Shown: positions 6,754 through 49,586, numbered from the stretch's first letter. The stretch: 62,108 nt of DNA from an uncultured SAR86 cluster bacterium (GCA_902556355.1 CACDVW010000003.1:1-62108), one strand, 5' to 3'. The notes: generated from the letters alone by a model not told the origin. Numbers and translations are program-made.

Positions 6754-6802
6754 ATTTCAGTATTTTTTAACACGCTCATTTTTATGTATACAATGATAAG
6801 AA

Positions 6803-7171: not shown

Positions 7172-7219
7172 TTAATTTGAAACTAGACTAGTATATAAAG
7201 TTTAAGTATTCTAAATAGC

Positions 7220-7651: not shown

Positions 7652-7653
7652 AG

Positions 7654-7821
7654 ATGGAAATTTTTACCTACCTGGTTTTTGCTTGGTTTTTTATCCATTT
7701 TATAGAATGCTTTGTATATAAAAATCTTATTGCAAAATCTCCTCACGGAAAAACTAAAGCCATTATCTATACCATGTTATTTGGAATTCTTTACTTAAGG
7801 AGAATTAAGTCGAAGAATTAA
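7654..7821 (+). CDS. possible small membrane protein, 55 aa (not in ORF track)
   Basis: Hand translation gives MEIFTYLVFAWFFIHFIECFVYKNLIAKSPHGKTKAIIYTMLFGILYLRRIKSKN, with two hydrophobic stretches. The 3' end overlaps the convergent helicase gene by 17 nt. Confidence 0.3.
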   Translation: MEIFTYLVFAWFFIHFIECFVYKNLIAKSPHGKTKAIIYTMLFGILYLRRIKSKN

Positions 7822-34477: not shown

Positions 34478-35562
34478 TGAAAAAAATTTTAACGTTTGTT
34501 TTATTGATTGGATTAATTTCTGGCTGTTCTGGTGAACAAGAGTCATCCAACTCTGCGGATGCTGAATATAAAACATACAAATGGAGGCTCGTTACATCCT
34601 GGCCAAAAAATTATCCAGGCCTTGGAATGGCTCCTGAGAAAATAGCCAATCTTGTTGAAGAGATGAGCAATGGCCAAATGCAGATAACTGTCTATGGTGC
34701 AGGCGAACAGGTTCCTGCTTTCGGGGTCTTTGATGCTGTTTCAAGCGGATCACATCAAATGGGTCATAGTGGAGGGTATTTTTGGAAAGGAAAAGTTCCT
34801 GCTGCTCAGTTTTTTACTAGCGTTCCTTTTGGATTAACAGCAGATGAAATTAATGCTTGGGTAAACAGAGGTGGCGGTTTAGAGTTATGGAGAGAAATAT
34901 ACGAACCCTTCAATATTTATCCTATTCCTGCTGGAAACACTGGAACCCAAATGTTTGGTTGGTTTAACAAAGAAATTAATTCATTGGAGGACGTCAAGGG
35001 TCTTAAAATGCGTATTCCAGGAATCGGAGGAGAGGTTTTAAAAGAAGCAGGCGGAATTCCAGTAACTCTTCCTGGAGGAGAATTATTTACAGCGCTTCAA
35101 ACAGGTGTGATTGATGCTACCGAATGGGTTGGACCATACAATGATCTTACCTTTGGTTTTCATCAAGCTGCAAAATATTACTATTATCCCGGTTGGCACG
35201 AACCTGGACCGATGCTAGAGCTACTAATCAACATGGATGCTTGGAATAGTCTTCCAAAACATCTTCAAGTAATAATCGAAACAGCCACTAAGGCGGTAAA
35301 TCAAGACACCTTAGATGAGTACTTGGCAAGAAATAACCAAGCGCTAACCGAGCTAGTTGAAGTTCATGGTGTTGAGTTGAGAAAACTACCAGATGACGTT
35401 ATTGAAGAATTTAGAGCTATTTCAAATGAAATATTAAGCGATTTAGCAGAAGAAGATGAGGTAATTGGCAAGGTTTATGATTCATATATTGAGTTTAAAA
35501 ATAACGTTACCGAATATCATAAGATTTCTGAAGATTCATTCATTGAAGCTAGAAATAAATAG
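34474..35562 (+). CDS. dctP: TRAP transporter substrate-binding protein (COG4663-like DctP family)
   Basis: The start at Met13 of the track ORF overlaps the uvrD stop (ATGATG). Lipobox-like LISGC, then YKWRLVTSWPKN and GGYFWKGK blocks. Confidence 0.85.
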   Translation: MMKKILTFVLLIGLISGCSGEQESSNSADAEYKTYKWRLVTSWPKNYPGLGMAPEKIANLVEEMSNGQMQITVYGAGEQVPAFGVFDAVSSGSHQMGHSGGYFWKGKVPAAQFFTSVPFGLTADEINAWVNRGGGLELWREIYEPFNIYPIPAGNTGTQMFGWFNKEINSLEDVKGLKMRIPGIGGEVLKEAGGIPVTLPGGELFTALQTGVIDATEWVGPYNDLTFGFHQAAKYYYYPGWHEPGPMLELLINMDAWNSLPKHLQVIIETATKAVNQDTLDEYLARNNQALTELVEVHGVELRKLPDDVIEEFRAISNEILSDLAEEDEVIGKVYDSYIEFKNNVTEYHKISEDSFIEARNK

Positions 35563-37129: not shown

Positions 37130-37247
37130 TTAGGCTTTAAATTTTCTATCAGCTTCAAATTTTTTGTTTTTAAATTTATTGCTTCTGTTTTTTATTGTCA
37201 GTCGATATCTTTATTGATTTTTTAGGAAATATGGATTTTGGAATGGC

Positions 37248-40200
37248 CTAAAAATTTATATCTTCTTCTTGAGCTGTTAAAGAATTAAATCCTAAATTTC
37301 GAACATGTACGTTAGGATAGTGTAATTTTTTTAAATTTCTATATCCCATACTTGTTCTAAGATATTCAATAAAGGCCTTTTTTTCAATACAATCAACACC
37401 ATCAATCTTTTTAATTTTAATTGAGTTAGCTCTTAAAATTTTTAACAATGGCCTGTATTTAATATCGTTTTGATATTTAGGTTTTGTATTTTTTGTAAGA
37501 TAGTCAGAAAGTTCATTTAAGCTACTTATGCTGTGTGTTGTATTACTTTTTCTATATAGAAAATTGGCATCTTGTTTGGTTATATAACTTCTTTCATTAA
37601 AAGAGAACCTATAATCAGCTTGTTTGAAATTGTCATTAATCTCATAGAGATCATATTTTTCTATGAGATTAATATATTTTTTAATCGCTTTTAAGTGATT
37701 TAATGCCTCCCATGTCCCAATTAATGCCTCTAATGGGTATGTGAGTGAAGCCTGTAAAGGAAAAAAACCTACATTTCTTTGAGCAGTTTCTTCTTCAAAG
37801 GTATTAATTATCTTGTCAAAGACTTTTTCATATACCTTTATAAGTGAATTAATTTCATTGTGTATTGTAGTGAATGTTTCTTCTTTATTTTGTATAAAGG
37901 TAAAATCATTATCATTTATTTTATTTTGTAATATATCCAGACTCAAAGGATGTATTTTCTCTTCTTGGGAGTCCCATAAATAGATAAAGTTATTTGTATT
38001 AAATTCGTTTTCCACTGACTTCGAAAACTTGTTTCTTTGACCAGCAAAGTTTGCCATTTTGCTTACTTCATTAGTGCTGACAGAATAAGCAAAAAATCCT
38101 TCTAAAAACGAGATTACTTTAAAAAAACTATCTGCTACACCGTAAAAAGCTCTATGAAAGTTTATAGTTTTTTGAATATTTACAAAATTTTGAATAATTT
38201 CCCAACTAAGAAGTTCTTCAGACAATGCTCCATTTTTTCTTAACCCATGAAGCCTTTTTGTAATTGCTATATCTAAGTCATTGGCTAATGTATTATCTAG
38301 CTGAATAAGACTGACAATATTTAAAACTGAATCAACAATATCATTGTCCCAAATATCCGAATATATTATTTTTAGGGAGAATATTCTTTCTAAAGAGGTA
38401 TTCTTATAATTAGGATAGTAAAAAAATTTTTTGGCTCTTCCTCGTGCAAATATTTTAGTTCTATTGCCATCATTTTTCTCTAAATTATTCATTTCCTCCC
38501 AAACTAGCCACCGTCTTAATTTTTGTATAATAGCGTTTAGCCTATCTTGTATTTTTTGCCTCTTCTTATCATCTTTTATATTTTTTTCTAGCTCCTTCTC
38601 CGTATCATTAAGAATTTGATATAGTGCCTTCATTTCTTTGCCATCATTTTTATATGAATCCGTTAAAAATCTATTTAAATAATTACCTCTTCTTGGAAAG
38701 TTTAAATCTCGCTGCAACACCTGTTGCTGGATATGTAAGCAACTATTGATAAATTCTTCTTTGCTCATATCGCTTTTTGATAAGCCATCTTCTTTAGCAA
38801 TGCGCGGAGAAAGATATTTTTTACTAAATTTTAAATTCAATCTATTTTTCTTTGGTTTTTTTGGAAGTTTTTCATATTCCTGGCCTAACCATTTTTTTTT
38901 CTTTTTCATTTCGATATCAAGCTTATCCCAAAGCATTCTTACTTTTTTTTCTGGTGAAAGATCACCCTTCAATGTATCACTAACAAATTCCTTATAAATA
39001 GTTACAAAATCATTTTTTACTCTTTCATTAGTTTTATTTTTGTACTCTTTAAGTATTTTCTTAAATCTCTTTGTTGTTCGATCTTTTTGAGCAGGATGAT
39101 TTTCGAAATTTTCATAATATGATTGACAAAAATCTAATTGTTCAGCTTTAAGCCATTCGTTAATGTTTGATATTTTGCTTGGATTCGCCTCAATATTTTT
39201 TTTAAAATCATCCAATGCGTTTTTTATTAATTTTTCTTTAGCAAATAATGAGTTTTTTGCTTCAGCATTAACTTGTCTTACATTTTCATTTCCAACACCA
39301 ATAGACTTTTGATCTCTTAATAATATCTTTTCTTGCTGGATACTTTTCCATACCCTTTTGTGAAGATGATTACTGTTTTCAAACACTAGTGGGTCTAAAT
39401 ACCTTCTTGGGAAAAGGTAGTCGTTTGGCATTGAGATATTTAAAGTCATATGTCTTACAAAAGAATCATTATTCGGAGAATAAAATTTACCAGCATCTGT
39501 TATTAAGGTTCTTTTAGAGGCTTCGAGCTGTCCCTTAATAAATTGAAAAGATTCATTAATATTTACTGGCTTAGTATATTTTTTTAATATTGAAAATATC
39601 CTCTTATAATTTTTATTTTGAGAGTCTAAATAATTAAGCATGCAGCTACCAATAGCCCATTGAATAGTTAGTTCAACCGCCTCTGATACAGATTTAAGTG
39701 ATCTTGAATAAATTTTTTTAAATTTCTTTTCTGAATTAAGTGGGAAATCTAAATATCTAAAATACTTATCAACATTAACTATAAAATCGCCTGATACTAA
39801 ATAGTCGGATCCGCCTAGCGTCCTATATTTTTTATCTGTCCAGAATTTTGTCTTAAAATTATTTTTTGAGAAAAATTCATGTAATTTCTTTCTATTTTTG
39901 TCAGTATTTTTAAACCTATACAACCATAAACCTTTATCTTTTATCTGATCGTTTAAATGATTGTTTTTTAAACTATATTTAACCCGTTTTTCTTGAGAGC
40001 TATCTAACTTATACCATTCAGCATCCAATATTAAGTCTTTAGATGTGATTTTTCTGCTAATCCTCCTTAAGAAAAGGTATTTCCATTTATTTTTTGATAA
40101 CACTTTTGCGTTAATAAAACCATTAAATTTACCTCTCCCAACAAAAGATTTTTTGATAGTTACATCAAATATATTTTTACGAATAGTATTTTTATTTTTA

Positions 40201-40997
40201 TATTCTTGAAGATATGCAAGATTACTTTCTAATTTAAATTTTGTTTTAGCACTCTTGTGAGAAAATGATAGTGGAGGGTTCCTATAAAAGCTTTCAGATC
40301 TAGACTCATTTTTAATTTTTCCTGAATATGACCCTAAAATATATAATTTATTTAGATCACAAAGGATATTTTGGCTAGGCTTATCTTCAAAACTACGACC
40401 AATGATATTTTTAGGTAGAACGTCTATATTGTATTTGAGTTTACTCCACTGAATATCTATTAAAGCATCATTAATAATTAAATTATCATTCTCAATATAG
40501 TAGGGAGCAAATATATTTTTTTTTTCAGATGGAAAAATATGGTAGTAAAAATTTTCTTTTATATCTAAGTACTTAAAATTGCCAATTCTGATATCTTTCT
40601 GCTCGTAAAATACTGAGTCTCTAAGCCAATTTCTTTTCTTTTGATTTTCATCAAGAGTCTCCTCATACTGAAAAGTACTGCTAATTACCGCATCAGAAAT
40701 TTTCTTTTTAATGTTATTTTTTTTAATTTCCTTATTGGTATAGCCTAGAAATTTTCCCACATTTAAATAGAGCTGATCTTGAAAGTTCTTACTTAAAAGA
40801 TACTTGCCAAGTATTTCTCTATATTTGTAATTAACGCTGGAAACCCTAACTATTGCTGAGGATAGCTCATGAAAACAACCATCCGGATCTTCATCAGGTG
40901 CAAAAAATTTAGAACGATGACCAGCGCTCTTGTCGATATCTTTATTTAAGTTACTAATGAATTCATTAGAGCTTTCTTTATTAAAAGTTTTAAACAT
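37248..40997 (-). CDS. 1249-aa Lys/Asn/Ile-rich cytoplasmic protein, no recognisable domain
   Basis: An uninterrupted 3.75 kb ORF in about 25 percent G+C DNA, where random ORFs of that length are very unlikely. No signal peptide, TM helix, Walker A or HExxH motif seen. Confidence 0.8.
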   Translation of the reverse strand: MFKTFNKESSNEFISNLNKDIDKSAGHRSKFFAPDEDPDGCFHELSSAIVRVSSVNYKYREILGKYLLSKNFQDQLYLNVGKFLGYTNKEIKKNNIKKKISDAVISSTFQYEETLDENQKKRNWLRDSVFYEQKDIRIGNFKYLDIKENFYYHIFPSEKKNIFAPYYIENDNLIINDALIDIQWSKLKYNIDVLPKNIIGRSFEDKPSQNILCDLNKLYILGSYSGKIKNESRSESFYRNPPLSFSHKSAKTKFKLESNLAYLQEYKNKNTIRKNIFDVTIKKSFVGRGKFNGFINAKVLSKNKWKYLFLRRISRKITSKDLILDAEWYKLDSSQEKRVKYSLKNNHLNDQIKDKGLWLYRFKNTDKNRKKLHEFFSKNNFKTKFWTDKKYRTLGGSDYLVSGDFIVNVDKYFRYLDFPLNSEKKFKKIYSRSLKSVSEAVELTIQWAIGSCMLNYLDSQNKNYKRIFSILKKYTKPVNINESFQFIKGQLEASKRTLITDAGKFYSPNNDSFVRHMTLNISMPNDYLFPRRYLDPLVFENSNHLHKRVWKSIQQEKILLRDQKSIGVGNENVRQVNAEAKNSLFAKEKLIKNALDDFKKNIEANPSKISNINEWLKAEQLDFCQSYYENFENHPAQKDRTTKRFKKILKEYKNKTNERVKNDFVTIYKEFVSDTLKGDLSPEKKVRMLWDKLDIEMKKKKKWLGQEYEKLPKKPKKNRLNLKFSKKYLSPRIAKEDGLSKSDMSKEEFINSCLHIQQQVLQRDLNFPRRGNYLNRFLTDSYKNDGKEMKALYQILNDTEKELEKNIKDDKKRQKIQDRLNAIIQKLRRWLVWEEMNNLEKNDGNRTKIFARGRAKKFFYYPNYKNTSLERIFSLKIIYSDIWDNDIVDSVLNIVSLIQLDNTLANDLDIAITKRLHGLRKNGALSEELLSWEIIQNFVNIQKTINFHRAFYGVADSFFKVISFLEGFFAYSVSTNEVSKMANFAGQRNKFSKSVENEFNTNNFIYLWDSQEEKIHPLSLDILQNKINDNDFTFIQNKEETFTTIHNEINSLIKVYEKVFDKIINTFEEETAQRNVGFFPLQASLTYPLEALIGTWEALNHLKAIKKYINLIEKYDLYEINDNFKQADYRFSFNERSYITKQDANFLYRKSNTTHSISSLNELSDYLTKNTKPKYQNDIKYRPLLKILRANSIKIKKIDGVDCIEKKAFIEYLRTSMGYRNLKKLHYPNVHVRNLGFNSLTAQEEDINF

Positions 40998-41039
40998 TTT
41001 AATTATTTTTGTTTTAGCAGAGTCAAATAATTATATCAA

Positions 41040-41061
41040 AAGGTGCTGTTAACAGCACCTT
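41040..41061. promoter_or_regulatory. perfect 22-bp palindrome AAGGTGCTGTTAACAGCACCTT in the divergent intergenic region
   Basis: Read directly. It is self-complementary around a GTTAAC centre and is the most GC-rich element in the 146-nt gap between the two divergent start codons (40997 and 41144). Confidence 0.5.
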
Positions 41062-41143
41062 ATTAATATTAAATAAAAAACGGAGCAATATCTATTTAAT
41101 TACTACGATATTAATCTAGATTTTAAATTGAGGTATAAAAAAT

Positions 41144-41473
41144 ATGACAAGATTTAAATTAGGTAATACAGAAAACTATGTTGAGGTATCTATAATTTAT
41201 AAGGTTAAAGAAGACCTCGAGAAACAAGAAGTATTTATTATAACGCCTGATCTTTTGGAAAGCTATGAATTGCCTGCATCAAAATTCATATCTTTTTTAC
41301 AACAAAAATTAAATTTTGATGACCCCCATTACTCTTTATGTCATGAGCTCTGGTCCTCTAACAAGGGTTTATTTTCTAAGACATCTGCTAAAGAGGGCGA
41401 TAAATTTGAGTTAAATAAGATTACTCAAATCATCAGCGAAAAAACAGGGGTAATCGATCTAGAAACTAAATAG
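41144..41473 (+). CDS. hypothetical protein, 109 aa (first gene of the plus-strand operon)
   Basis: ORF with GAGGT 8 nt upstream. No recognisable family. Confidence 0.55.
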   Translation: MTRFKLGNTENYVEVSIIYKVKEDLEKQEVFIITPDLLESYELPASKFISFLQQKLNFDDPHYSLCHELWSSNKGLFSKTSAKEGDKFELNKITQIISEKTGVIDLETK

Positions 41474-41492
41474 AAAAGAGGGAGAGTTGATT

Positions 41493-41624
41493 ATGAGAGA
41501 CATTAAGAAAAAATTAGTTGAATTATTAAGTTCAGCAAAAAATCAAAATATTAACAAGATCTATACAAATAAAAGACCTCGCGAGGCTGTTAGATGTATT
41601 TGGAATCTAAGGAGTGAGGCATGA
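41493..41624 (+). CDS. hypothetical basic miniprotein, 43 aa (not in ORF track)
   Basis: Hand translation gives MRDIKKKLVELLSSAKNQNINKIYTNKRPREAVRCIWNLRSEA. GGGAGAG lies 6 nt upstream. The stop overlaps the next start as ATGA. Confidence 0.45.
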   Translation: MRDIKKKLVELLSSAKNQNINKIYTNKRPREAVRCIWNLRSEA

Positions 41625-41806
41625 CTAATAAAAATATAAATTTAATCGAGCACGATGATATTCAATATGACATTGAACTTGACAAATTTATTTGGAAACC
41701 GGGATTCGCTGAAGAAATGAGTGACTATCTTAATTATCAAAATCACGACCATGATTTAGATGAAAAGATTTTTATCTACCAATTTCTTAATCAAAGAAAT
41801 TATTAG
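41621..41806 (+). CDS. hypothetical acidic miniprotein, 61 aa
   Basis: AGGAGTGAGG upstream and an ATGA junction with the preceding ORF. Confidence 0.5.
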   Translation: MTNKNINLIEHDDIQYDIELDKFIWKPGFAEEMSDYLNYQNHDHDLDEKIFIYQFLNQRNY

Positions 41807-41885
41807 TGTTATCAAAGTAGATGGCAGGTCAAGGCCTACATGTTGTCTATTTAATTTAATAACCATAGGCCTAAGGAGAAAAATT

Positions 41886-42680
41886 ATGTCTTTAAAAGAT
41901 GTAAGAGAAGGTTTGAAGGTAGCTGGATGCTTAATATTTGTGGCTTCTTTCTATTTTCTAGTTATTAAAAATGAGCCGCTCCATGATGAGGTTGCCAGAA
42001 CAGTAGAGCAATCAAATTCCTGGACGACTGAGAGAAAGTTAAAGCAGACGGACACTTTTTTATTCCATGCTAAAAATAAATTAGAGAATGCTATAGATCA
42101 AGTTACCAAGCAGGTTTTTCAACTTAACAGCTCAGGTACGCTATTAAGCTCTAAACTAAAAGCATCAATTGCTAGAGAGGAGATGTTAGACAAAAAGCTT
42201 GCTGACTATAAATGGCAGTTCAAAACTCTCGAGCAAAAAGCTTCAGATAATCCACCTAGTTATGACATAGCAATGGATATCACAACAGTAAAAAATAAAA
42301 TTACTAAAATGCTGCTTGAAAAAAAACAGCTCAAAGCAACAATAGTAAGTCTGAAGAATCAGCTTGATGAAAACATAAATCAGACGCAAAAATCAGGTTT
42401 AACATTAATTAAGTTAGAAGGTGACCTCAGTTTGGTTTCTAATACCAACGATCTTAATAATATTTTCTCGCCAAGTGGTGGTATAGGGCTAAGCAAATCT
42501 GGTGCAGATGAGCTTGCAGAGTTAATTAGTGATGTTGGGACAATTAACAAACAGCTTAAAGAATCGCAAGATAATAATGTTGTTCCTGATTATATGATCG
42601 ATGCATATAAAGATACAGATGCTTTATTTGACTCATTTATAAATAGTGATGATACCAAAACTATCAATATAGGAGGGTAA
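41886..42680 (+). CDS. N-terminally TM-anchored coiled-coil protein, 264 aa
   Basis: I prefer the start at Met43 of the track ORF because AAGGAG lies 7 nt upstream. LKVAGCLIFVASFYFLVI forms the anchor, followed by heptad-rich sequence. Confidence 0.6.
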   Translation: MSLKDVREGLKVAGCLIFVASFYFLVIKNEPLHDEVARTVEQSNSWTTERKLKQTDTFLFHAKNKLENAIDQVTKQVFQLNSSGTLLSSKLKASIAREEMLDKKLADYKWQFKTLEQKASDNPPSYDIAMDITTVKNKITKMLLEKKQLKATIVSLKNQLDENINQTQKSGLTLIKLEGDLSLVSNTNDLNNIFSPSGGIGLSKSGADELAELISDVGTINKQLKESQDNNVVPDYMIDAYKDTDALFDSFINSDDTKTINIGG

Positions 42681-42686
42681 TTAAAA

Positions 42687-44426
42687 ATGAGCTCTCCTAT
42701 AATTAATGAAAGAGAAATAAATCAATCTATAAGATTATCAAAGATTCTTTTCTTTTGGGCTATTCTTATAGAATTACTGATTGTATCAATGGGCTGGACG
42801 GCATCATATATATCAGGAAATAGGTCTCTTTCGATTCCTACCTTATTGCTAAGCACACTAGCTTTAGGAGAGCTCACTTCACTTTGGTCTACGGAGGTTT
42901 TTGCCGAGCAAATAAGAAGAAAACGAAGGTATTTAATTAAATTCTGTTCGTTATTTGCAGTCCTTATAGCTATGAGTTTTACAGTTACCAATTTGGGTCA
43001 TATTGCAATGATTGTAGAAAGTCATGAGTCTAGTAAGCTAGAAGGATATCTAATTGATAAAAACAGGATCGAAGATGAAAATTTAACTACTCATCGTGAA
43101 ATAGAAATACAAAAATCCAAAATATTATCACTTCAAGCCCAACATAATAATGACGAATTCCTTCAGGCAACTAAGGATGAACTAGATGAGATCCAGGTTA
43201 CTGAAGAAAAAATTTTTAAAAATATAGATCAAATAAAAGCACAAAATTTTGCTGATGAAAAATCTACCCAAAATTACTTGATTAATTTTAATGAAAAGAA
43301 GCTTAGAGAATTAAAAAGTACCTTCAAGGAGATAGACGATAGATATTTGCAGGAACTGGAAAAGCTTCAAGATGACCGATTTGAAGAGCTAGCTCTTTCT
43401 AGCTGGCGCCAAAAAAATAACACTAAGACTAGGTATGACCAGCTTAGGGCCAATTTAGATAATAAATATAAATTACAAAAAGCTCCTATAGAAAAAGAAA
43501 TAGATAGTCTCAATAAAGAAGTTGCTAAAGCAAAAAATTTATTAGTAAGTTATGCATCCCTCTCACCAGAAAGCATTGAATTAATAAAAAGTCAGAATCT
43601 AAAATTGCAAAATTTAAAAAGTGAAAAAGAAAAACTTGTTGATCAAAAATCTAATTTTTACAAAGACAATAAAGACGATGCTTTCTCATTTAAAAGAGAA
43701 ATCGATAATTTACAACAGATATTAAATGAAAATGATCAGCAACTTTCAAGAATTGAGACAAAGGAAAGGGAATTCAAAAAAACAAGTTGGCTTGTGAAAC
43801 TAGCTAGTAATTATTATGCAAAAAGCACCTCATCTATATCGCTTAGCGAATTCAAATCATTTGCTTACTATTTTGTTCTTATATCTTGTATAGGGTTAGC
43901 TCTGCTCCCAAAAATTTTGGTATTTTTATCGGTGCTCGTAAAAAGTAGCGATCATGATGATCGCACAGAAAAAAAAGATAACTACATTTCTAAAAGTATT
44001 AATTCTTTGGCTAAAGCAATCACAGACTATTCAGAATCTACCAAAAAGATTAAAAAGGCTAAGAAAATTGCAATGCTTGAAGTTGAAGCCATCAAAAGCG
44101 AATCACATAAAAAGATTGATGATAACAACTCTAAAAATGATAAAGAAATAGCAGAAAAAAATAAAAAAATAGCAAATCTTACTTCGGAGATTCTAGTACT
44201 TAAACATGCAAGAAAGAATGACAAACAAATTACTGAATTTTTAAAAAAGCATAAAGAAGTTTTAAATAAACTAGAAGAACTTAAAAGCGTATCTAAAAAA
44301 ACCCCTAACAATAATATTGTGAAAAAACTTATCCCTGTGAATATCTATCAGGAAATGCTTAAGGAGCTAAGCATAGACAGGGAGAGTATAGGCAAGAACA
44401 TTCAACTTAATAAAAAAAAACAATAA
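42687..44426 (+). CDS. polytopic membrane protein with two long coiled-coil regions, 579 aa
   Basis: Three N-terminal helices, about 270 aa rich in K/E/Q/L heptads, a hydrophobic hairpin FAYYFVLISCIGLALLPKILVFLSVLV, then a second K/E-rich coil. Confidence 0.7.
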   Translation: MSSPIINEREINQSIRLSKILFFWAILIELLIVSMGWTASYISGNRSLSIPTLLLSTLALGELTSLWSTEVFAEQIRRKRRYLIKFCSLFAVLIAMSFTVTNLGHIAMIVESHESSKLEGYLIDKNRIEDENLTTHREIEIQKSKILSLQAQHNNDEFLQATKDELDEIQVTEEKIFKNIDQIKAQNFADEKSTQNYLINFNEKKLRELKSTFKEIDDRYLQELEKLQDDRFEELALSSWRQKNNTKTRYDQLRANLDNKYKLQKAPIEKEIDSLNKEVAKAKNLLVSYASLSPESIELIKSQNLKLQNLKSEKEKLVDQKSNFYKDNKDDAFSFKREIDNLQQILNENDQQLSRIETKEREFKKTSWLVKLASNYYAKSTSSISLSEFKSFAYYFVLISCIGLALLPKILVFLSVLVKSSDHDDRTEKKDNYISKSINSLAKAITDYSESTKKIKKAKKIAMLEVEAIKSESHKKIDDNNSKNDKEIAEKNKKIANLTSEILVLKHARKNDKQITEFLKKHKEVLNKLEELKSVSKKTPNNNIVKKLIPVNIYQEMLKELSIDRESIGKNIQLNKKKQ

Positions 44427-44435
44427 GGAACAAAA

Positions 44436-44678
44436 ATGCAAGAATCGACACAAGAAATTTTTAATAAAGAACAAAATCAATTTGTTGAATTGGATACCGA
44501 ATTTATTGAAAGTTATTTTGAATCCAAGCATCGCCAAAAAGAGTTAGAGCTAGATAGAGTAGAAAAACTAAATAATCTCCTGGAAACTGCCAAATTCGCA
44601 ATTAAGGGATTAATCATTTTATCTGGTTTTGTAATCTTTTTTCATTATTTGCCTGAAATTATAAATTTACATAGGTAA
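44436..44678 (+). CDS. tail-anchored small protein, 80 aa
   Basis: Acidic N-terminal half and a C-terminal helix GLIILSGFVIFFHYL. It starts 9 nt after the upstream stop. Confidence 0.5.
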   Translation: MQESTQEIFNKEQNQFVELDTEFIESYFESKHRQKELELDRVEKLNNLLETAKFAIKGLIILSGFVIFFHYLPEIINLHR

Positions 44679-44694
44679 CGGATAGGGAGGAACT

Positions 44695-45144
44695 GTGGAT
44701 TACCCAAATTTAACCGTAGTAAACAATCAAGTAGTTAAGATAACCTCTGTTGAGGTAAATATTCCAATTGAATCCTCTGATGAGAATATAAGCTTTATAT
44801 CTTCAAGCAGCCACATTATTTTTCTAGCTATAAATCAAAATTCCATAAAAAAAATCTACTCTTATGATGACTGGGAAAAGAATTTATTTCTTGCCATTTA
44901 TTACTGCAAAGAATTAACAGATATACAAAAGTGTCAATTTGAAAGATGGTCTACTTATTTTATTAGCTTCAATTTTAAAACATGGAATAAAGCAACTAAG
45001 AACGAAACAAATAACTTTATATCTGATAAGAAAAATCAGCTTTTCGAAGTCAGTCAAGAGTTACAAAAGAAGAAGATCATAGAAAAATACGAACATATTA
45101 GAGATTCAAATAAAAATTTATTCAGAAAACTGACAGAGAGTTAA
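44695..45144 (+). CDS. hypothetical soluble protein, 149 aa
   Basis: GTG start with GGGAGG 4 nt upstream. No recognisable family. Confidence 0.5.
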   Translation: MDYPNLTVVNNQVVKITSVEVNIPIESSDENISFISSSSHIIFLAINQNSIKKIYSYDDWEKNLFLAIYYCKELTDIQKCQFERWSTYFISFNFKTWNKATKNETNNFISDKKNQLFEVSQELQKKKIIEKYEHIRDSNKNLFRKLTES

Positions 45145-45150
45145 AAAAAT

Positions 45151-46896
45151 ATGATGGAAAATTACAGAAAAGGAATTACTCAAGCTTCGTTAAACCTTTA
45201 TACATGGAAAATTATTGCATTAGAGATTTTATTTATTTCTATAGCTTTTGGCGCATACATGGAGTCGATTTATGTTTTTGGCATATCTTTATTCATTTTC
45301 CTGCTACTTTTTTATGTCAAATCAACAGCTATATATGTATCAACTTTATTTTCAATAATATGGGCTCTTATCCCATCTAGCATACTAAGCAATATAAAAA
45401 ATGTTGAGTTTTATTCATCTTTGCATATATTACTTCAATCCCCTGTGTCCCAAGTTTTTGCAATAATAATTTTTTTTATTGCTTTTTATCTTCACAAATC
45501 AACCTCAGATTTTTTTCACGATGCTTTGTACCCAGTAATGCAACCCTTCGTCAATATATTTAAAGGAAGAAAAAATAAAAAGAATTCACAAAATAAAAGA
45601 AATAGGACCAAAATTAAGTATGACAAAATCTTGAATTTTATTTCTGATGAAAAAGTGCATCCTCACAATCTTAGACTATTCCTAGAAAAAAATGGCTTCA
45701 GCCTATATCAAACGAATGAGGATAGGAATTTTGAAAAAAAGATCATATTCAACGATAAAGGGATTATTAAGTTTTATAACTTAGTTGAAACTAAACGATG
45801 GATTACAAAATTTATACAAAAATCTACTTCAAACCCAGAAAAGCTTTTAGATACATGGGTTAAGTTTTCTGATATCGCATTAAAAAGACAAGTTATTGAT
45901 CATTTACAAGTTTATTCATCGTTAAAATTTAATAATACTAAAAGCTTAGAGCTATTAAGAGATAATGAACAAAAATGCTATTTAAAGTTCAAAAATGGAA
46001 TTGTTAGAGTTTCTAGTGATTCAATAGTTTTTTCCCAGTACTCAGATTTGTCTAAATCTGTTTTTGAATCGTCTATTATTCCAAGAAACTTTTCTGGCAT
46101 ATCTAAATTAACGAATCCCTCACAATCACAACCAGGGAATAAAAAACTATTTGAGAAATTTGTTGAAAAAAGTGTTCTATCAAGCATACCCAATGCCGAA
46201 AAAGATAATTGGCGCGATGAGTATGTTTTTGATGAAACTGCAAAAGCATCCCTTACATCGCTAAAAACAGCCCTTGGTTATTTGGTTCACTCATATAATA
46301 ATCCATCTACCTCTAAGGCTGTTTTCTTTGTAGATAGGTTTTCATCTAATGGTAAATCAAATGGTGGTACTGGCAAAAGTCTGATAATAAGTAGCCTTGA
46401 AAATATTTTAGTGCAGTCAAAACAAGATGGAAAAAAATATAGAGATAATCCAAATCAGGGTGGAAGGTTTCAATTTTCAAATGTTGATTATGAGACTCAA
46501 AATATATTTATTGATGATTTAAAACAAAACTTTGATATTGAAAGTATATTTACTATGGTAACTGGTGACATTGAGATTGAGCGCAAAGGGCAAAATAAAT
46601 TTATAATTCCTAAAAATGAACGACCGAAATTTGCTCTAACATCAAATTTTCCAATTCCGATAAAAGGCACAAGTTACTCAAGACGCATTCATCAAGTTGA
46701 GCTAGGAAGCTATTGGAATAGATGCATAAACGAAGGCAGCAAACCAAAAGATGAAATTGGCGGAGAGCTGTTTGGAAATAATTTTTCTAAACATGACTGG
46801 GACGATTTTTATATTTTTATTATTAATTGTGTTCAAGATTATTTAAGGCTAGGTCTTGTAGATGTTCAAAAACTAACGAGTCATCAAGATGATTAA
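45151..46896 (+). CDS. membrane-anchored D5_N/SF3-helicase-like (P4/VirE-type) P-loop NTPase, 581 aa
   Basis: About four TM helices span aa 16-115. CYLKFKNGIVRV resembles the D5_N block. LGYLVHS...VFFVD...GGTGKS is Walker A (nt 46363-46380), NIFIDDL is Walker B (46501-46521) and FALTSN is SF3 motif C (46630-46647). Confidence 0.7.
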   Translation: MMENYRKGITQASLNLYTWKIIALEILFISIAFGAYMESIYVFGISLFIFLLLFYVKSTAIYVSTLFSIIWALIPSSILSNIKNVEFYSSLHILLQSPVSQVFAIIIFFIAFYLHKSTSDFFHDALYPVMQPFVNIFKGRKNKKNSQNKRNRTKIKYDKILNFISDEKVHPHNLRLFLEKNGFSLYQTNEDRNFEKKIIFNDKGIIKFYNLVETKRWITKFIQKSTSNPEKLLDTWVKFSDIALKRQVIDHLQVYSSLKFNNTKSLELLRDNEQKCYLKFKNGIVRVSSDSIVFSQYSDLSKSVFESSIIPRNFSGISKLTNPSQSQPGNKKLFEKFVEKSVLSSIPNAEKDNWRDEYVFDETAKASLTSLKTALGYLVHSYNNPSTSKAVFFVDRFSSNGKSNGGTGKSLIISSLENILVQSKQDGKKYRDNPNQGGRFQFSNVDYETQNIFIDDLKQNFDIESIFTMVTGDIEIERKGQNKFIIPKNERPKFALTSNFPIPIKGTSYSRRIHQVELGSYWNRCINEGSKPKDEIGGELFGNNFSKHDWDDFYIFIINCVQDYLRLGLVDVQKLTSHQDD

Positions 46897-47740
46897 TTCA
46901 GGATTAATAAAATTAAAAAATTCTGACAAAAAGATTGTATGGTATTTTTTTGCAGAAATAATATTTATTTCAAGTTTAATTGCTTCAACCTATAGTAATC
47001 CTTATTTGTTTTTAATCTCAATTTTAGCCATAACATTGTTAATATATTTTGAGTCAACTTCTATATATACCTCTTTATTTTTATCTGTTTTTTGTGCTTT
47101 AGTACCTTTTATGGCTCTGAGTGCTATTTTGGGATTGAATTTTTTTCAATCATATGAAGGTTTTATATCAAGCTCAGGATCAAAAATTTTGATTTTTATA
47201 TTGTTCTGTATATCATTTTATTTTCATCTTCACTCAAGAATTATTATAAGAAATTTTTATGAACCATTTTTTAAGAAAATTAGATTTTATATACCGATTA
47301 GAAATGAAAAATTTCATATAAAGATTTATGGATCCTCATTAAACACGCCAAAAGTAAAAAGATATGTGAATGATATAATGTTCTACCTTATGCCTTTCTA
47401 TGGCGAAGATAAAAACATAATTATCAAAGAAACTGGCTGTATTAATTCTAAGGACACAGAATCGGGTTATGCTCTTGGTAATTGTGTGTATGACAATGAG
47501 AATACAGTTGTTATAAACATATCAGAATATAACTCTATGCAAAGAACAAAACAAAGTATGGATAGTAAAATTAAAACCCTTGCTCATGAACTAGTTCATG
47601 CAAAACAGTTTTTAAAAGGTGAGCTGAATGGAGAATATTGGCATGGAAAAAAATATGAAAATTTAGTATGGGAAGATAGACCGTGGGAAAAAGAGGCAGT
47701 TCTGCTTGAAAAAAAATTATTTAATAAGCACTGGTATTGA
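46889..47740 (+). CDS. membrane-anchored HExxH zinc-metallopeptidase-like protein, 283 aa
   Basis: The N-terminal 4-TM module is paralogous to that of the preceding gene. The C-terminal LAHELVHAKQ has HELVH at nt 47585-47599 and a downstream PWEKEA that could supply the third ligand. It overlaps the upstream gene by 8 nt. Confidence 0.65.
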   Translation: MINSGLIKLKNSDKKIVWYFFAEIIFISSLIASTYSNPYLFLISILAITLLIYFESTSIYTSLFLSVFCALVPFMALSAILGLNFFQSYEGFISSSGSKILIFILFCISFYFHLHSRIIIRNFYEPFFKKIRFYIPIRNEKFHIKIYGSSLNTPKVKRYVNDIMFYLMPFYGEDKNIIIKETGCINSKDTESGYALGNCVYDNENTVVINISEYNSMQRTKQSMDSKIKTLAHELVHAKQFLKGELNGEYWHGKKYENLVWEDRPWEKEAVLLEKKLFNKHWY

Positions 47741-47784
47741 GCATCTGATAAATTAAGATAATCGCATTTTAAATTTTACCCTGG

Positions 47785-49122
47785 TCATATTACCAAAAAT
47801 GGCAGTGCTAAGACTGATACCAAAACCACTAATTGAATAATGATAAATGGTATGACACCCCTATAAATGTCTAATGTCTGTATGGATTCATCTGCAACGC
47901 CTCTTAAGTAAAACAATGAAAAACCAAAGGGCGGTGTTAAGAAAGAAGTTTGCAGGTTAATTGCAATTAGAATTGCTAACCAGACTGGATCAAAACCCAT
48001 CATCAATAGAGGTGGGGCGACCAAAGGAACAATTACATAGCAAATTTCAATAAAATCTAAAATAAATCCAAGCAAGAAAACAAAAATTAAAACAAAAATT
48101 AATGCTGTATATGGCCCTCCAGGGAGAGAGCCAAACACCAAATCAATTAAATCATCTCCACCAACTCCTCTAAAAATTAGTGAAAAAATAGAAGCACTAA
48201 TTAATATTGTGAAGATCATTGTTGAGACTATTGCAGTTTTCTTACTAGTTTCTTTTATAAAGCCTAAAGATAACTTGCCGTTAATAAGAACTATTAAAAG
48301 TGCACCAGCAGCTCCAATAGCAGATGCCTCTGTTGGTGTTGCTATTCCAGCAATAATAGAACCTAAAACCAAAATAATTAAAAGTAATGGCAAGGCAAGA
48401 GTCTTAAGAATATTTTTGAATGATGCTGATTTTGCTTCTGGCTCAAACAAGATATTTGGATTTTTATAGTTTTGATAGATTGTATAAATAAGATACCCAA
48501 GACAAATCATAATTCCAGGTACTATGGCGCCAATAAATAAATCTCCAACAGTAACAGTTTGTTGAGAAAAAATACCCATGTTGTTTTGAGCTCTTTGATA
48601 TGCATTAGACATAACATCACCCAAAAGCACTAATGCAATTGAAGGAGGAATGATCTGTCCTAAGGTTCCCGTTGATGCAACTAGGCCTGATGAGAAATCT
48701 TTTTTATAGCCCTGTTGAATCAGAACTGGCAAAGACATAAGACCCATTGTTACAACTGTTGCGCCAACAATACCTGTGCTTGCTGCTAATAGAGCACCAA
48801 CAGAAATTATAGAAATGCTTAGACCGCCTCTAATATTCTTAAATGCTAAAGCCATGTTTTCTAACATTTTTGCAGCAATGCCCGACCTTTCAAGAACAGT
48901 CCCCATAAATATAAATAAGGGAACTGCGAGAAGAGTCACATTATTCATAATCCCAAATATTCTTAGAGGAATACTTTTCAAAATTGATTCATCAAATATT
49001 CCGAACGGTATACAGATTAGAGCAAATAGAATAGAGACCCCAGAAAGTGTAAATGCAACCGGATACCCAAATAAAAGAGCTAGACATATTAAAACTAAAA
49101 GTAATAAAGGAATTATTTCCAT
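47785..49122 (-). CDS. dctM: TRAP transporter large permease (DctM family)
   Basis: 445 aa and about 12 TM helices. The GYPVAFTLSG opening and FGFSLFYLRGV are typical of TRAP DctM (COG4664-like). Confidence 0.9.
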   Translation of the reverse strand: MEIIPLLLLVLICLALLFGYPVAFTLSGVSILFALICIPFGIFDESILKSIPLRIFGIMNNVTLLAVPLFIFMGTVLERSGIAAKMLENMALAFKNIRGGLSISIISVGALLAASTGIVGATVVTMGLMSLPVLIQQGYKKDFSSGLVASTGTLGQIIPPSIALVLLGDVMSNAYQRAQNNMGIFSQQTVTVGDLFIGAIVPGIMICLGYLIYTIYQNYKNPNILFEPEAKSASFKNILKTLALPLLLIILVLGSIIAGIATPTEASAIGAAGALLIVLINGKLSLGFIKETSKKTAIVSTMIFTILISASIFSLIFRGVGGDDLIDLVFGSLPGGPYTALIFVLIFVFLLGFILDFIEICYVIVPLVAPPLLMMGFDPVWLAILIAINLQTSFLTPPFGFSLFYLRGVADESIQTLDIYRGVIPFIIIQLVVLVSVLALPFLVI

Positions 49123-49586
49123 TTTGTTTTTATAAATTGATTAATTAGCGCTGTTAAAAGCGTTAGTGGGAATAGAACTATCAATGTTTTTTGAATGTAT
49201 ACATATGCCAAACCACCTGCTTCTGTAGATGTTTCACTCATTTTCCAAGAAGCTTCGATTGTTTCAATAGAATAAAAAAATGTAACAGCAATTAGAGGTA
49301 GTAAAAACAATAAACCTAATACACTATTTATATTTTTTTTATACCTATCAGATGCATTTCTGTAGAAAATATCAACTCTTACATGTTCATCATGATTCAT
49401 TACGTAACCAGCACAACCAAGAAAAACCAATGCATGAAAGTACATCACTAACTCTTGGATGCCAGTTCTTCCAATACCAAAAAAATACCTACTAATAATT
49501 ACAAATACCATCAAAGCAACCATAACTGGTATTAGGTAAGATATTTTTTCACCTACAAAATTTATATACTTTTCTAGAACTTTCAT
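49113..49586 (-). CDS. dctQ: TRAP transporter small permease (DctQ family)
   Basis: 157 aa and four TM helices. It overlaps the dctM start by 10 nt. Confidence 0.8.
   Translation of the reverse strand: MKVLEKYINFVGEKISYLIPVMVALMVFVIISRYFFGIGRTGIQELVMYFHALVFLGCAGYVMNHDEHVRVDIFYRNASDRYKKNINSVLGLLFLLPLIAVTFFYSIETIEASWKMSETSTEAGGLAYVYIQKTLIVLFPLTLLTALINQFIKTKWK

What the first reader, a model, noticed from the sequence alone, without database searches (positions are those of the whole stretch)
45151..47740. One N-terminal 4-TM module fused to two different enzymatic heads in adjacent overlapping genes
Residues ~16-135 of the 581-aa ATPase and ~15-135 of the 283-aa peptidase align by eye without large gaps. 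Matching pairs are EILFISIAF/EIIFISSLI, LLLFYVKSTAIYVSTLFSIIWALIPS/LLIYFESTSIYTSLFLSVFCALVPF, and IIFFIAFYLHKSTSDFFHDALYPVMQPF/ILFCISFYFHLHSRIIIRNFYEPFFKKI. Roughly a third of positions look identical or conservative, but this is not computed. After the module, one protein continues into a D5_N/SF3 NTPase and the other into an HExxH domain. The two genes overlap by 8 nt. A shared membrane module with swapped soluble heads resembles the modular sensor/anchor-plus-effector design of defence and signalling systems. I do not know it as a described family.
Basis: seen in the sequence. Interest (0 to 1): 0.8.

Follow-up and report, generated by a model that had tools for sequence, protein, structure and literature searches.

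The report
Shared membrane module on helicase, peptidase
Two adjacent, overlapping genes really do start with the same four-helix membrane module, one continuing into a poxvirus-D5-type DNA helicase and the other into a small zinc peptidase. The module proves to be the constant core of an uncharacterised, fast-evolving nine-gene membrane cassette fixed at one chromosomal site in a group of marine bacteria.

Summary
Gene A (45151-46896, 581 aa) and gene B (46889-47740, 283 aa) overlap by 8 nt. Their N-termini are 37% identical over 98 aa (E = 8e-14; z = 10-14 against shuffles).

- **Module:** it has four TM helices, predicted N-in/C-in. It belongs to an uncharacterised family (phrog_15014; no Pfam or NCBIfam model) whose members are mostly free-standing 120-150-aa proteins.
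- **A's head:** a D5/E5-type SF3 helicase by fold, with intact NTPase motifs and no primase domain.
- **B's head:** a WLM/SprT/M91-type HExxH zincin.
- **Context:** A and B end a conserved cassette (37248-47740) of otherwise orphan proteins, five of them membrane proteins. In related metagenome contigs the cassette lies at the same site, with DctM on the right and usually LipA on the left.
- **Variation:** the cassette diverges far faster than its flanks, and part of it was recently exchanged by recombination. Every variant keeps one or two modules, while the heads come and go: M; M-Hel; M-Hel+M; M+M-Pep; M-Hel+M-Pep.

Best reading: the module is the membrane-embedded core subunit and oligomerising anchor, and it holds a DNA motor and a protease at the inner membrane. 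The likely role is a phage or mobile-DNA conflict system; that role is inferred, not shown.

The parts
45151..46896 (+). Gene A, 581 aa: 4-TM module, then a basic linker, then a D5_N-like collar and SF3 helicase head. It has no primase domain and lacks the C-terminal domain of its soluble relatives.
   Evidence: ORF. AF2 pLDDT 82.6. Foldseek PDB best hits are MPXV E5, vaccinia D5, ASFV PrimPol and SaPI5 Pri-Rep at E about 1e-10. Soluble homologues start at the equivalent of residue ~160 and extend ~120 aa further at the C-terminus. pN/pS of the head is 0.07 against a 98.9%-identical allele.
45151..45555 (+). Module copy 1 (A residues 1-135). It has the N-terminal RKGxTQAxxN motif, 4 TM helices, invariant E25 (nt 45223-45225) in TM1, and near-invariant H115 (nt 45493-45495) at the cytoplasmic end of TM4.
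   Evidence: phrog_15014 E = 3.7e-5 to 8.6e-5 for A itself, and down to 7e-29 for family members.
45556..45645 (+). Basic, disordered linker (IFKGRKNKKNSQNKRNRTKIKYDK...) between the module and the helicase head.
   Evidence: pLDDT below 50 at residues 138-157; 8 K/R after TM4; sequence.
46363..46518 (+). NTPase core of A: Walker A GGTGKS (46363-46380) and Walker B IFIDD (ends 46518). Motif C (TSN) and the RR finger follow downstream.
   Evidence: G405, G406, G408, K409, D456, N499, R511 and R512 are invariant and D455 is nearly invariant (at least 90%) in 25 homologues. Translation checked.
46889..47740 (+). Gene B, 283 aa: 4-TM module, then a small HExxH zinc peptidase head of WLM/SprT/M91 type.
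   Evidence: ORF. Pfam Peptidase_M91 30.3 bits (cut-off 25) and SprT-like 23.4 bits (cut-off 25.6). phrog_16532 at 1.8e-13. Profile against PDB: Spartan, E = 0.81, aligned motif. tblastn hit annotated 'WLM protease domain protein' in Synechococcus phage S-BM3.
46889..47287 (+). Module copy 2 (B residues 1-133). It is a divergent copy that has lost the N-terminal TQA motif but keeps E23 (46955-46957) and H113 (47225-47227).
47585..47599 (+). HELVH zinc-binding and catalytic motif of B. The conserved W-H-G and RPWExEA motifs lie downstream.
   Evidence: H233, E234 and H237 are invariant in 5 B-type proteins. Translation checked.
46889..46896 (+). 8-nt overlap ATGATTAA: the B start codon lies inside the end of A, which suggests translational coupling.
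44695..45144 (+). 149-aa soluble orphan ('f149'). It always sits immediately upstream of the first module gene.
   Evidence: Conserved in every locus that extends upstream of the first module gene. No PDB or Pfam match.
44436..44678 (+). 80-aa protein with a C-terminal TM helix ('smallTM').
42687..44426 (+). 579-aa membrane protein with a long coiled coil ('CC3TM'). An invariant Glu (E62) lies in a hydrophobic segment.
   Evidence: No consistent Pfam hit.
41760..42680 (+). Single-TM protein with a coiled coil ('CC1TM'). The true start is probably the ATG at 41886, which follows an AAGGAG (264 aa).
   Evidence: the HMM aligns from residue 43; RBS. Homologues are 263-268 aa.
41144..41473 (+). 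109-aa soluble orphan ('f109'), the first gene of the + strand operon.
   Evidence: No PDB match.
37248..40997 (-). 1249-aa soluble orphan ('BIG'), transcribed divergently from the operon.
   Evidence: Only 9 homologues among 5.8 billion clusters, all full-length and none with a Pfam domain. AF2 pLDDT 70.6. No Foldseek match in PDB or BFVD.

Best explanation
**What is shown.** A and B are paralogues in their first ~130 residues. This four-helix inner-membrane module has both ends predicted in the cytoplasm and comes from an uncharacterised family that normally exists as a free-standing ~140-aa protein.
- The module is the constant last component of a conserved cassette: BIG | f109 | CC1TM | CC3TM | smallTM | f149 | module(s). 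The cassette sits at a fixed chromosomal site, with DctM on the right and usually LipA on the left.
- In the clade that includes this window the module was duplicated in tandem and the copies acquired soluble heads.
- One head is a hexamer-type D5/E5 SF3 helicase taken from mobile-element replication proteins. It has no primase domain and lacks the C-terminal domain of its soluble relatives.
- The other head is a WLM/SprT/M91-type zinc peptidase of a kind found in phages.

**Proposed mechanism (inferred).** The module is a membrane-embedded, oligomerising subunit of the cassette's membrane complex. Fusion to it holds the DNA motor and the protease side by side at the cytoplasmic face of the inner membrane. 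The 8-nt overlap would give coupled synthesis, and the two paralogous modules probably co-assemble.

**Proposed role (inferred, less certain).** This is a conflict system that acts on DNA, or on DNA-attached proteins, at the membrane, for example excluding incoming phage or mobile-element DNA. That would account for the locus evolving very fast and being swapped by recombination.
For: **Homology of the two modules:**

**Family and fusions.** Exhaustive HMMER over 1.84 billion representatives finds 29 clusters.
- Most are stand-alone proteins of 120-150 aa.
- The only fusions are A-type (569-581 aa), B-type (270-288 aa), one zinc-ribbon fusion and one SHOCT fusion.
- 13 of 20 members match phrog_15014.
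- E25 is invariant; F43, F108 and H115 are near-invariant.

**Topology:**

**Head identities:** A; B.

**Cassette conservation and architectures:**
- [M-Hel][M-Pep]: window, L003/4/40, L005-10/33, L020/21, L030, L032, L037.
- [M-Hel][M]: L018, L034, L038, L039.
- [M][M-Pep]: L022.
- [M-Hel] followed directly by DctM: L035.
- Single [M]: L024-26.

**Fixed locus.** DctM lies on the right in 13 loci at 72-100% aa identity. LipA lies on the left in 6 loci at 89-99%. Cassette proteins are only 25-58% identical between variants.

**Recent exchange.** L030/L031 are 98.5-98.9% identical to window 41502-47977, yet the LipA flank is only 90% identical (pS 0.44 against 0.02-0.04), and the BIG/f109 part is replaced.

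**Genes under purifying selection:** pN/pS is 0.07 for A's head and 0.15 for B's head.

**Module lineages re-assort relative to heads:** bootstrap 94%, 97% and 85%.
Against: - No interaction between the two modules, or with other cassette proteins, has been tested; no multimer prediction was available.
- L035 and L024 manage with a single module, so a hetero-pair is not obligatory.
- No PADLOC or defence-family hit exists for any cassette protein, and the cassette's neighbours are housekeeping genes rather than a defence island.
- The only defence-context hint is a DruA-like gene 2.4 kb from a distant stand-alone homologue.
- The seven non-head proteins have no recognisable domains, so the function of the complex is unconstrained.
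- The module could equally be a channel or effector rather than a passive anchor.
Confidence: 0.5

Rival explanations
1. The module itself is the effector: a membrane channel or membrane-disrupting unit in the manner of abortive-infection TM effectors. The heads are sensors or regulators. The helicase would sense foreign replicating DNA, and the peptidase would activate or reset the system.
For: - The module has an invariant intramembrane Glu and a near-invariant His, which is unusual for a passive anchor.
- It exists on its own in most family members and in some cassettes.
- There is a weak S_4TM hit (E = 0.005) and a weak Ninjurin-2 profile hit (E = 0.086).
- CC3TM also has an invariant membrane Glu.
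Against: - Both weak hits are below significance, and the S_4TM match covers residues 102-173, mostly linker.
- There is no PADLOC match.
- No toxicity or conductance data exist.
- The rest of the cassette (five or six further conserved genes) is not explained.
Confidence: 0.2
2. The cassette is a domesticated or still-active virus-like or mobile element. It would replicate or transfer its DNA at the membrane. The SF3 helicase would act as a membrane-tethered replicative or translocating motor, as in membrane-bound SF3 NTPases of RNA viruses or T4CP/FtsK-type pumps. The peptidase would be a maturation or anti-host enzyme.
For: - The heads' nearest relatives are mobile-element and phage proteins: P0042 lies in an integrase/resolvase/ParB-methylase element, and there are phage and plasmid primase-helicases and PHROG hits.
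- The region has lower GC (28-30%) than its flanks (33-37%).
- Recent horizontal exchange is seen.
- The cassette encodes many small membrane proteins.
Against: - The chromosomal site is fixed.
- There is no integrase, Rep, primase, capsid, terminase, tRNA or att repeat.
- The helicase head is absent from the sequenced part of some variants (L022, L024), so it is not the element's essential replicase.
- BIG has no viral structural match.
Confidence: 0.15
3. The module is only a generic membrane anchor, reused after a tandem duplication. A and B work independently, and the shared module has no significance beyond localisation.
For: - Heads are optional and occur in any combination.
- W_A and W_B have drifted to 30-37% identity.
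- Single-module cassettes exist.
Against: - The module is conserved as a stand-alone gene in the same cassette position when no head is present (L024, L018 second position, L022 first position). It therefore has a function of its own.
- The invariant polar residues argue against a simple anchor.
- Adjacency and overlap are retained across diverged variants.
Confidence: 0.12
4. The similarity is a chance product of hydrophobic composition.
For: Both regions are rich in I, L, F and S.
Against: - E = 8e-14 with composition adjustment.
- z = 10 against block shuffles that keep local hydrophobicity.
- Other membrane proteins in the window score no more than 51, against 158 for B.
- A family profile retrieves both proteins.
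Confidence: 0.01

Closest known systems
D5/E5-type SF3 primase-helicases (vaccinia D5, MPXV E5, ASFV C962R PrimPol, SaPI5 Pri-Rep, phage and plasmid 'primase-helicase'/VirE/DUF5906 proteins)
   Same: The head of A (residues ~160-575) has the collar plus SF3 helicase fold (Foldseek E about 1e-10 over about 440 columns). It has intact Walker A and B motifs, motif C and an Arg finger. Its sequence homologues carry PF19263, PF08800, PF08707/8 or DnaG-type domains.
   Different: A has no AEP or Toprim primase domain and lacks the ~120-aa C-terminal domain of its soluble relatives. It has an N-terminal 4-TM module. No Pfam D5_N or other Pfam model reaches E <= 0.1 on A itself. From my own knowledge, which was not searched exhaustively, I know of no described membrane-integral D5-type helicase in bacteria. 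Two literature searches found none.
WLM / SprT-like / Peptidase_M91 minimal zincins (Wss1, Spartan, ArdC protease domain, NleD/XopG effectors)
   Same: B has the HExxH motif, a preceding G-x-C...I-N-I strand pattern and a following W-H-G motif, aligned with Spartan. M91 scores above its Pfam threshold. The phage relative is annotated as a WLM protease.
   Different: The head is much smaller (~150 aa) and fused to a 4-TM module. SprT-like falls just below threshold (23.4 against 25.6). No DNA-binding domain is recognisable, and the substrate is unknown.
phrog_15014 (PHROGs v4, function unknown)
   Same: 13 of 20 module-family members match it, with a best E of 7e-29, and A's module matches at 4e-5. 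Size and TM layout are similar.
   Different: The PHROG is a ~116-position stand-alone protein, whereas here the module is fused to enzymatic heads and embedded in a chromosomal cassette. B does not hit the PHROG directly. No member was found in 50,697 GenBank phage records by tblastn.
Membrane-anchored hexameric NTPase motors (T4 coupling proteins and FtsK; membrane-bound SF3 NTPases of RNA viruses such as norovirus NS3 or picornavirus 2C)
   Same: The design principle is the same: an N-terminal membrane domain plus a ring-forming P-loop motor facing the cytoplasm. A 2025 preprint (10.1101/2025.06.17.659504, listed) describes a membrane-bound SF3 ATPase proposed to act in nucleic-acid transport.
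   Different: There is no sequence or family relationship to the TM parts. This is an analogy only, and the ring assembly of A is untested.
Defence systems with TM components (CBASS S_4TM effectors, Kiwa KwaA, Zorya ZorAB)
   Same: These systems also have a modular layout with a membrane component plus nucleic-acid enzymes, a long coiled-coil membrane protein (as ZorA has), conserved acidic residues in TM helices and a fast-evolving locus.
   Different: No PADLOC model matches any cassette protein. S_4TM scores 16.7 bits against a cut-off of 26.9, outside the TM core. No MotAB/ExbBD domain is present.

Membership tests
SF3 helicase, D5/E5 type | Walker A, Walker B, motif C (sensor Asn) and arginine finger | tested here: met
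   GGTGKS, IFIDD, TSN and RR are present. G405, G406, G408, K409, D456, N499, R511 and R512 are invariant and D455 is nearly invariant (at least 90%) in 25 homologues.
SF3 helicase, D5/E5 type | Collar (D5_N-like) plus AAA+-like helicase fold | tested here: met
   AF2 model (pLDDT 82.6). Foldseek PDB hits to MPXV E5, vaccinia D5, ASFV PrimPol and SaPI5 Pri-Rep at E = 9e-11 to 1e-8, probability 1.00, about 430-450 columns.
SF3 helicase, D5/E5 type | Sequence match to Pfam D5_N / DUF5906 / VirE models above threshold | tested here: not met
   No such Pfam hit at E <= 0.1 on A itself. Only precomputed, partly 'weak' PF19263 hits exist, on close homologues.
Primase-helicase (bifunctional D5/P4-alpha type) | N-terminal AEP or Toprim primase domain | tested here: not met
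   A's soluble part begins where soluble homologues begin their pre-helicase domain. No primase Pfam domain is present. The 4-TM module lies ahead of the head, where the more distant homologues carry primase-associated Pfam domains (PF08800, PF08707/8, PF01807).
SF3 helicase, D5/E5 type | Hexameric ring and DNA-dependent NTPase/unwinding activity | not testable with these tools
   Needs multimer modelling or biochemistry.
WLM/SprT/M91 zincin | HExxH motif conserved in the family | tested here: met
   HELVH at residues 233-237; H233, E234 and H237 are invariant in 5 B-type proteins.
Peptidase_M91 (PF14891) | Pfam gathering threshold | tested here: met
   30.3 bits against a cut-off of 25, E = 6.3e-7, residues 174-271.
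SprT-like (PF10263) | Pfam gathering threshold | tested here: not met
   23.4 bits against a cut-off of 25.6. The profile against PDB Spartan gives E = 0.81, although the motifs align. The relationship is clan-level only.
WLM/SprT/M91 zincin | Zincin fold | not tested
phrog_15014 | HMM match of the module | tested here: met
   A scores E = 8.6e-5 (full-length) and 3.7e-5 (module). 13 of 20 family members match, best 7.2e-29. B itself does not hit and is linked only through A and the family profile.
S_4TM (PF18159, SMODS-associated 4TM effector) | Pfam gathering threshold over the TM region | tested here: not met
   16.7 bits against 26.9. The match covers A residues 102-173, which is TM4 plus linker.
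Known anti-phage defence systems (PADLOC-DB 2.0) | Any component HMM match | tested here: not met
   No meaningful hit for 8 cassette proteins at E <= 0.1. The only rows are Cas11 at 0.055 and PDC-M11B at 0.0044 on the 80-aa protein.
Integrative mobile element / prophage / satellite | Integrase or transposase, att repeats or tRNA target, variable insertion site | tested here: not met
   No integrase domain, no tRNA and no flanking repeats. The same DctM right flank is seen in 13 loci and the LipA left flank in 6.

The most novel reading that the evidence does not exclude
The LipA|DctM cassette is a previously unrecognised kind of envelope-embedded conflict system of abundant low-GC marine bacteria. 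Its core would be a membrane complex made of the 4-TM module, two coiled-coil membrane proteins and a small TM protein. At least the module and CC3TM carry invariant intramembrane glutamates, so the complex may be ion-conducting. This complex would recruit, by direct gene fusion, an exapted mobile-element SF3 DNA motor and a WLM/SprT-type (DNA-protein-crosslink-type) protease to intercept incoming phage or plasmid DNA and its attached proteins at the inner membrane. Heads and module alleles would be shuffled by recombination under diversifying selection.
Probability: 0.25. Interest if true: 0.85.

Novelty: new variant of a known kind. Interest (0 to 1): 0.62.

Why it matters
- **Helicase.** A D5-type SF3 helicase is normally the soluble replicative motor of viruses, satellites and plasmids. 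Here it is integral to the membrane, has no primase domain, and sits next to a membrane-integral WLM/SprT-type protease that shares its anchor. I did not find this arrangement described.
- **Orphan proteins.** The finding opens onto a whole conserved cassette of orphan proteins. One is a 1249-aa protein with no sequence or fold relatives.
- **Locus behaviour.** The cassette occupies a fixed site in what appear to be abundant ocean bacteria (Tara and other marine metagenomes). It diverges far faster than its flanks and is exchanged by recombination.
- **If it is a defence or exclusion system.** It would add a new membrane-based mechanism and help explain flexible genomic islands in marine bacterioplankton.
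- **If it is not.** The 4-TM family, with its invariant membrane Glu and His, is still a tractable new membrane module whose natural fusions say which enzymes it works with.

Tried and rejected
1. **Mobile element with variable insertion sites.** I first inferred this from differing left flanks (DapB, DUF805, LipA). I rejected it after tblastn showed DctM on the right in 13 loci and LipA on the left in 6. There is no integrase, tRNA or att repeat.
2. **Obligatory tandem module pair.** L018 and L022 suggested this. L035 (M-Hel followed directly by DctM) and L024 (single M) weakened it.
3. **Alternative head in P0001.** This looked like B's module with a different tail. It is a chimeric, low-coverage contig end with poly-A and low-complexity sequence. 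The internal stops in A on L001 and L002 are single substitutions or a cluster of T-to-A changes on low-coverage contigs, so I treated them as assembly noise.
4. **Searches that found nothing:**
   - Module against GenBank phages, using A, P0014 and P0017.
   - Stand-alone clade (alignment A3) in IMG/VR. One search, with the full module alignment A2, failed for lack of a conserved stretch.
   - A-type protein in 185,579 species genomes: only one distant, head-only hit, in an Acidobacteria MAG.
   - Rfam over the window.
   - PDB by sequence for A, B, BIG, f149 and f109.
   - Foldseek of BIG against PDB and BFVD.
   - Pfam on all BIG and CC3TM members.
   - PADLOC on the cassette and on neighbours of a stand-alone homologue, where only a DruA-like gene 2.4 kb away matched.
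5. **Literature searches** for a described membrane-anchored D5/DUF5906 helicase or this cassette found nothing relevant.
6. The listing of cluster members failed twice, so the host organism and cluster sizes were not obtained. The second job then went to the BIG protein, so B's fold is unmodelled.


Full report
**1. The observation**

The two ORFs are as described. A is 45151..46896 (+, 581 aa) and B is 46889..47740 (+, 283 aa). They overlap in ATGATTAA.

BLASTP aligns A18-115 with B17-113 at 37% identity with one gap, E = 8e-14 after compositional adjustment. The Smith-Waterman score of 158 is never reached in 1000 full shuffles (47 +/- 8). It is also never reached in 1000 shuffles confined to 12-residue blocks, which preserve the hydrophobic pattern (56 +/- 10).

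Against every stop-to-stop ORF of at least 80 aa in the window, the next best score is 69, and true membrane proteins such as DctM reach 51. The similarity is therefore homology, not composition. No colinear DNA similarity remains, so the duplication is old.

**2. Anatomy of the module**

Hydropathy gives four TM segments in each protein. The N-terminus is basic and the stretch after TM4 is strongly basic, so both ends, and therefore both heads, should be cytoplasmic.

The AF2 model of A has pLDDT 80-87 over residues 20-120. Its helices are 17-37, 40-55, 57-83 (broken at residue 73, next to conserved Pro75), a short helix at 87-96, and one long helix at 98-137. A disordered linker follows at 138-157.

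In a 20-member family alignment the TM1 glutamate (A E25, B E23) is invariant. F43, F108 and the histidine at the cytoplasmic end of TM4 (A H115, B H113) are near-invariant. Most members, including A but not B, begin with an R-K-G-x-T-Q-A-x-x-N motif.

**3. What the module is**

A profile of the two copies was searched with HMMER against 1.84 billion representative proteins. It found only 29 clusters at E <= 1e-3.
- Most are free-standing proteins of 120-150 aa.
- The fusions are A-type proteins (569-581 aa), B-type proteins (270-288 aa), one with an N-terminal zinc ribbon and one with a C-terminal SHOCT domain.
- No member hits a Pfam membrane domain, and A has no NCBIfam hit.
- Thirteen of 20 members match phrog_15014, a function-unknown PHROG (best 7e-29; A at 4e-5).

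The word-indexed search of 5.8 billion clusters found only two near-identical fragments. No member was found in GenBank phages.

**4. The heads**

*Head of A.* A's full-length relatives (52-59% identity) all carry the module. More distant relatives (25-41% identity) are soluble proteins that begin at the equivalent of A residue ~160 and have an extra ~120-aa C-terminal domain. Several carry primase-associated Pfam domains.
- One such soluble relative lies in an integrase/resolvase/ParB-methylase element.
- Others are phage and plasmid 'primase-helicase' proteins.
- Pfam finds no D5_N on A by sequence.
- The AF2 model (pLDDT 82.6) matches MPXV E5, vaccinia D5, ASFV PrimPol and the SaPI5 primase-helicase at E about 1e-10 over about 440 columns.
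- Walker A and B, motif C and the arginine finger are conserved (all invariant except one Walker B Asp, D455, which is nearly so).

So the head is a collar plus SF3 helicase, without a primase domain.

*Head of B.* It passes the Peptidase_M91 threshold and just misses SprT-like. It matches function-unknown PHROGs. Its G-x-C...HExxH...W-H-G motifs align with Spartan in a weak profile hit. Its closest annotated phage relative is a 'WLM protease domain protein'. HELVH is invariant among B-type proteins. B's fold was not modelled.

**5. The surroundings: a conserved cassette**

A and B end a tightly packed + strand operon, with a large gene transcribed divergently upstream. The order is:
- BIG (37248-40997, minus strand, 1249 aa)
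- f109
- a 61-aa ORF
- CC1TM
- CC3TM
- smallTM
- f149
- A
- B

Five of the products are membrane proteins.

The same gene order recurs in about a dozen distinct metagenome contigs. Protein identities to the window are only 25-58%. None of the non-head proteins has a Pfam, PHROG, NCBIfam, PADLOC or PDB relative.

BIG has only nine homologues, all inside this cassette. It has no fold match in PDB or BFVD, with a model pLDDT of 70.6.

**6. The module is the constant part; the heads are optional**

HMM annotation of all fetched loci, with follow-up, shows five endings after f149:

| Ending after f149 | Loci |
|---|---|
| [M-Hel][M-Pep] | window, L003/4/40, L005-10/33, L020/21, L030, L032, L037 |
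| [M-Hel][M] | L018, L034, L038, L039 |
| [M][M-Pep] | L022 |
| [M-Hel] followed directly by DctM | L035 |
| single [M], in a more distant cassette | L024-26 |

In a bootstrapped NJ tree of modules, the stand-alone second-position module of L018 groups with the helicase-linked modules of L003/L005 (94%). L018's own helicase carries a very divergent module. The peptidase-linked modules fall into two separate groups (97% and 85%). Module lineages and heads have therefore been re-assorted, presumably by recombination between the tandem copies.

**7. The locus is fixed but hypervariable**

I first took the cassette for a mobile island because the left flanks differed. tblastn then showed DctM immediately to the right in 13 loci (72-100% identity) and LipA to the left in six (89-99%). 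There is no integrase, tRNA or terminal repeat. The flanks in the window are housekeeping genes: UvrD, DctP, LipB and LipA on one side; DctM, DctQ, YaaA and enoyl-CoA hydratase on the other.

Contigs L030 and L031 share the window's site.
- They are 98.5-98.9% identical over 41502-47977.
- They have a non-homologous left part, with BIG and f109 replaced.
- Their LipA flank is only 90% identical (pS 0.44, against 0.02-0.04 inside the cassette).

Part of the cassette has therefore moved recently between diverged backgrounds by homologous recombination. Between these alleles pN/pS is 0.07 for A's head and 0.15 for B's head, so the genes are functional. GC is 28-30% in the cassette against 33-37% in the flanks.

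**8. Interpretation**

*Shown:*
- The two modules are homologous.
- The heads are a D5-type SF3 helicase and an HExxH zincin.
- The module is a core cassette component.
- The heads are optional.
- The locus is fixed, fast-evolving and recombining.

*Inferred:*
- The module is a membrane-embedded, oligomerising subunit of a complex formed with the other membrane proteins.
- Fusion tethers a ring-forming DNA motor and a protease to the cytoplasmic face of that complex.
- The overlap gives coupled expression, and the tandem modules co-assemble.

The pattern of a fast-diverging, recombining fixed locus that has recruited mobile-element-derived enzymes fits a host-parasite conflict system acting on DNA at the membrane better than it fits a replicon. 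No known defence family matches, however, and the neighbourhood is not a defence island.

*Rivals:* the module as channel or effector with the heads as sensors; a domesticated virus-like element; independent anchors.

**9. Novelty**

The domain families of the two heads are known. The module family is catalogued only as a function-unknown PHROG. I did not find the fusion of a D5-type SF3 helicase to an integral membrane module, its pairing with a membrane WLM/SprT-type peptidase on a paralogous module, or the surrounding cassette described in the literature. I rate the finding itself as a new variant of a known kind (membrane-tethered enzymes produced by domain shuffling). There is a real chance that the cassette as a whole is a new kind of system.

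**10. Limits**

- The host organism is unidentified.
- B's fold is unmodelled.
- No multimer prediction or experiment was possible.
- Contexts come from short metagenome contigs, some with assembly errors.

Noticed in passing
window 37248-40997 (-): A 1249-aa soluble protein with no Pfam, PHROG, NCBIfam or PADLOC match. It has only nine homologues in 5.8 billion clusters, all inside this cassette. Its AF2 model (pLDDT 70.6; N-terminal helical, central beta-rich, long C-terminal helical regions) matches nothing in PDB or BFVD.
   Followed up: yes
window 37130-41501 vs L030:563-4345 and L031: Contigs at the same LipA|DctM site are 98.5-98.9% identical to the window from 41502 rightwards. They carry a non-homologous left part: a shorter, very divergent BIG of 742 aa and a divergent f109. 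The LipA flank is only 90% identical (pS 0.44). This indicates a recombination breakpoint near 41500 and recent transfer of the right half.
   Followed up: partly
window 41760-42680 (+): The listed start of the CC1TM gene is probably too far upstream. The ATG at 41886 follows AAGGAG, gives 264 aa like the homologues (263-268 aa), and removes the overlap with the 61-aa ORF at 41621-41806.
   Followed up: partly
window 42687-44426 (+), residue E62 (about nt 42870): The 579-aa coiled-coil membrane protein has an invariant glutamate inside a hydrophobic segment (LSTLALGELTSLW) across nine diverged homologues. This is a second conserved intramembrane acidic residue in the cassette, besides E25 of the module.
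   Followed up: no
window 34438-35562 (+) and 47785-49586 (-): The TRAP transporter genes are split. DctP lies upstream of lipB-lipA, while DctQ-DctM lie on the other strand beyond the cassette. The hypervariable cassette sits between lipA and dctM.
   Followed up: no
L001:2892-3104; L002:581-644: Near-identical contigs from other samples show artefacts. L001 ends in an unrelated poly-A, low-complexity tail joined exactly after B's module, which produced the false 'alternative head' protein P0001. L002 has a cluster of eight T-to-A changes and one G-to-T in 64 nt, one of which creates a stop in A. L001 also has a single substitution that creates a stop at A codon 238.
   Followed up: yes
P0023 and P0029 (module-family members): Two further natural fusions of the module exist outside the cassette. 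One has an N-terminal zinc ribbon plus a proline-rich linker. The other has a C-terminal SHOCT domain.
   Followed up: no
L011:3877-4242 and 6631-8001: A distant stand-alone module homologue (P0017) lies 2.4 kb from a DruA-like (Druantia) gene and a resolvase. This is a weak hint of a defence or mobile context for the stand-alone family.
   Followed up: partly
L024:7145-8476: In the distant single-module cassette, the module gene is followed by three further small genes (88, 250 and 104 aa) with no match to the helicase or peptidase heads or to any library. They may be alternative partners.
   Followed up: partly
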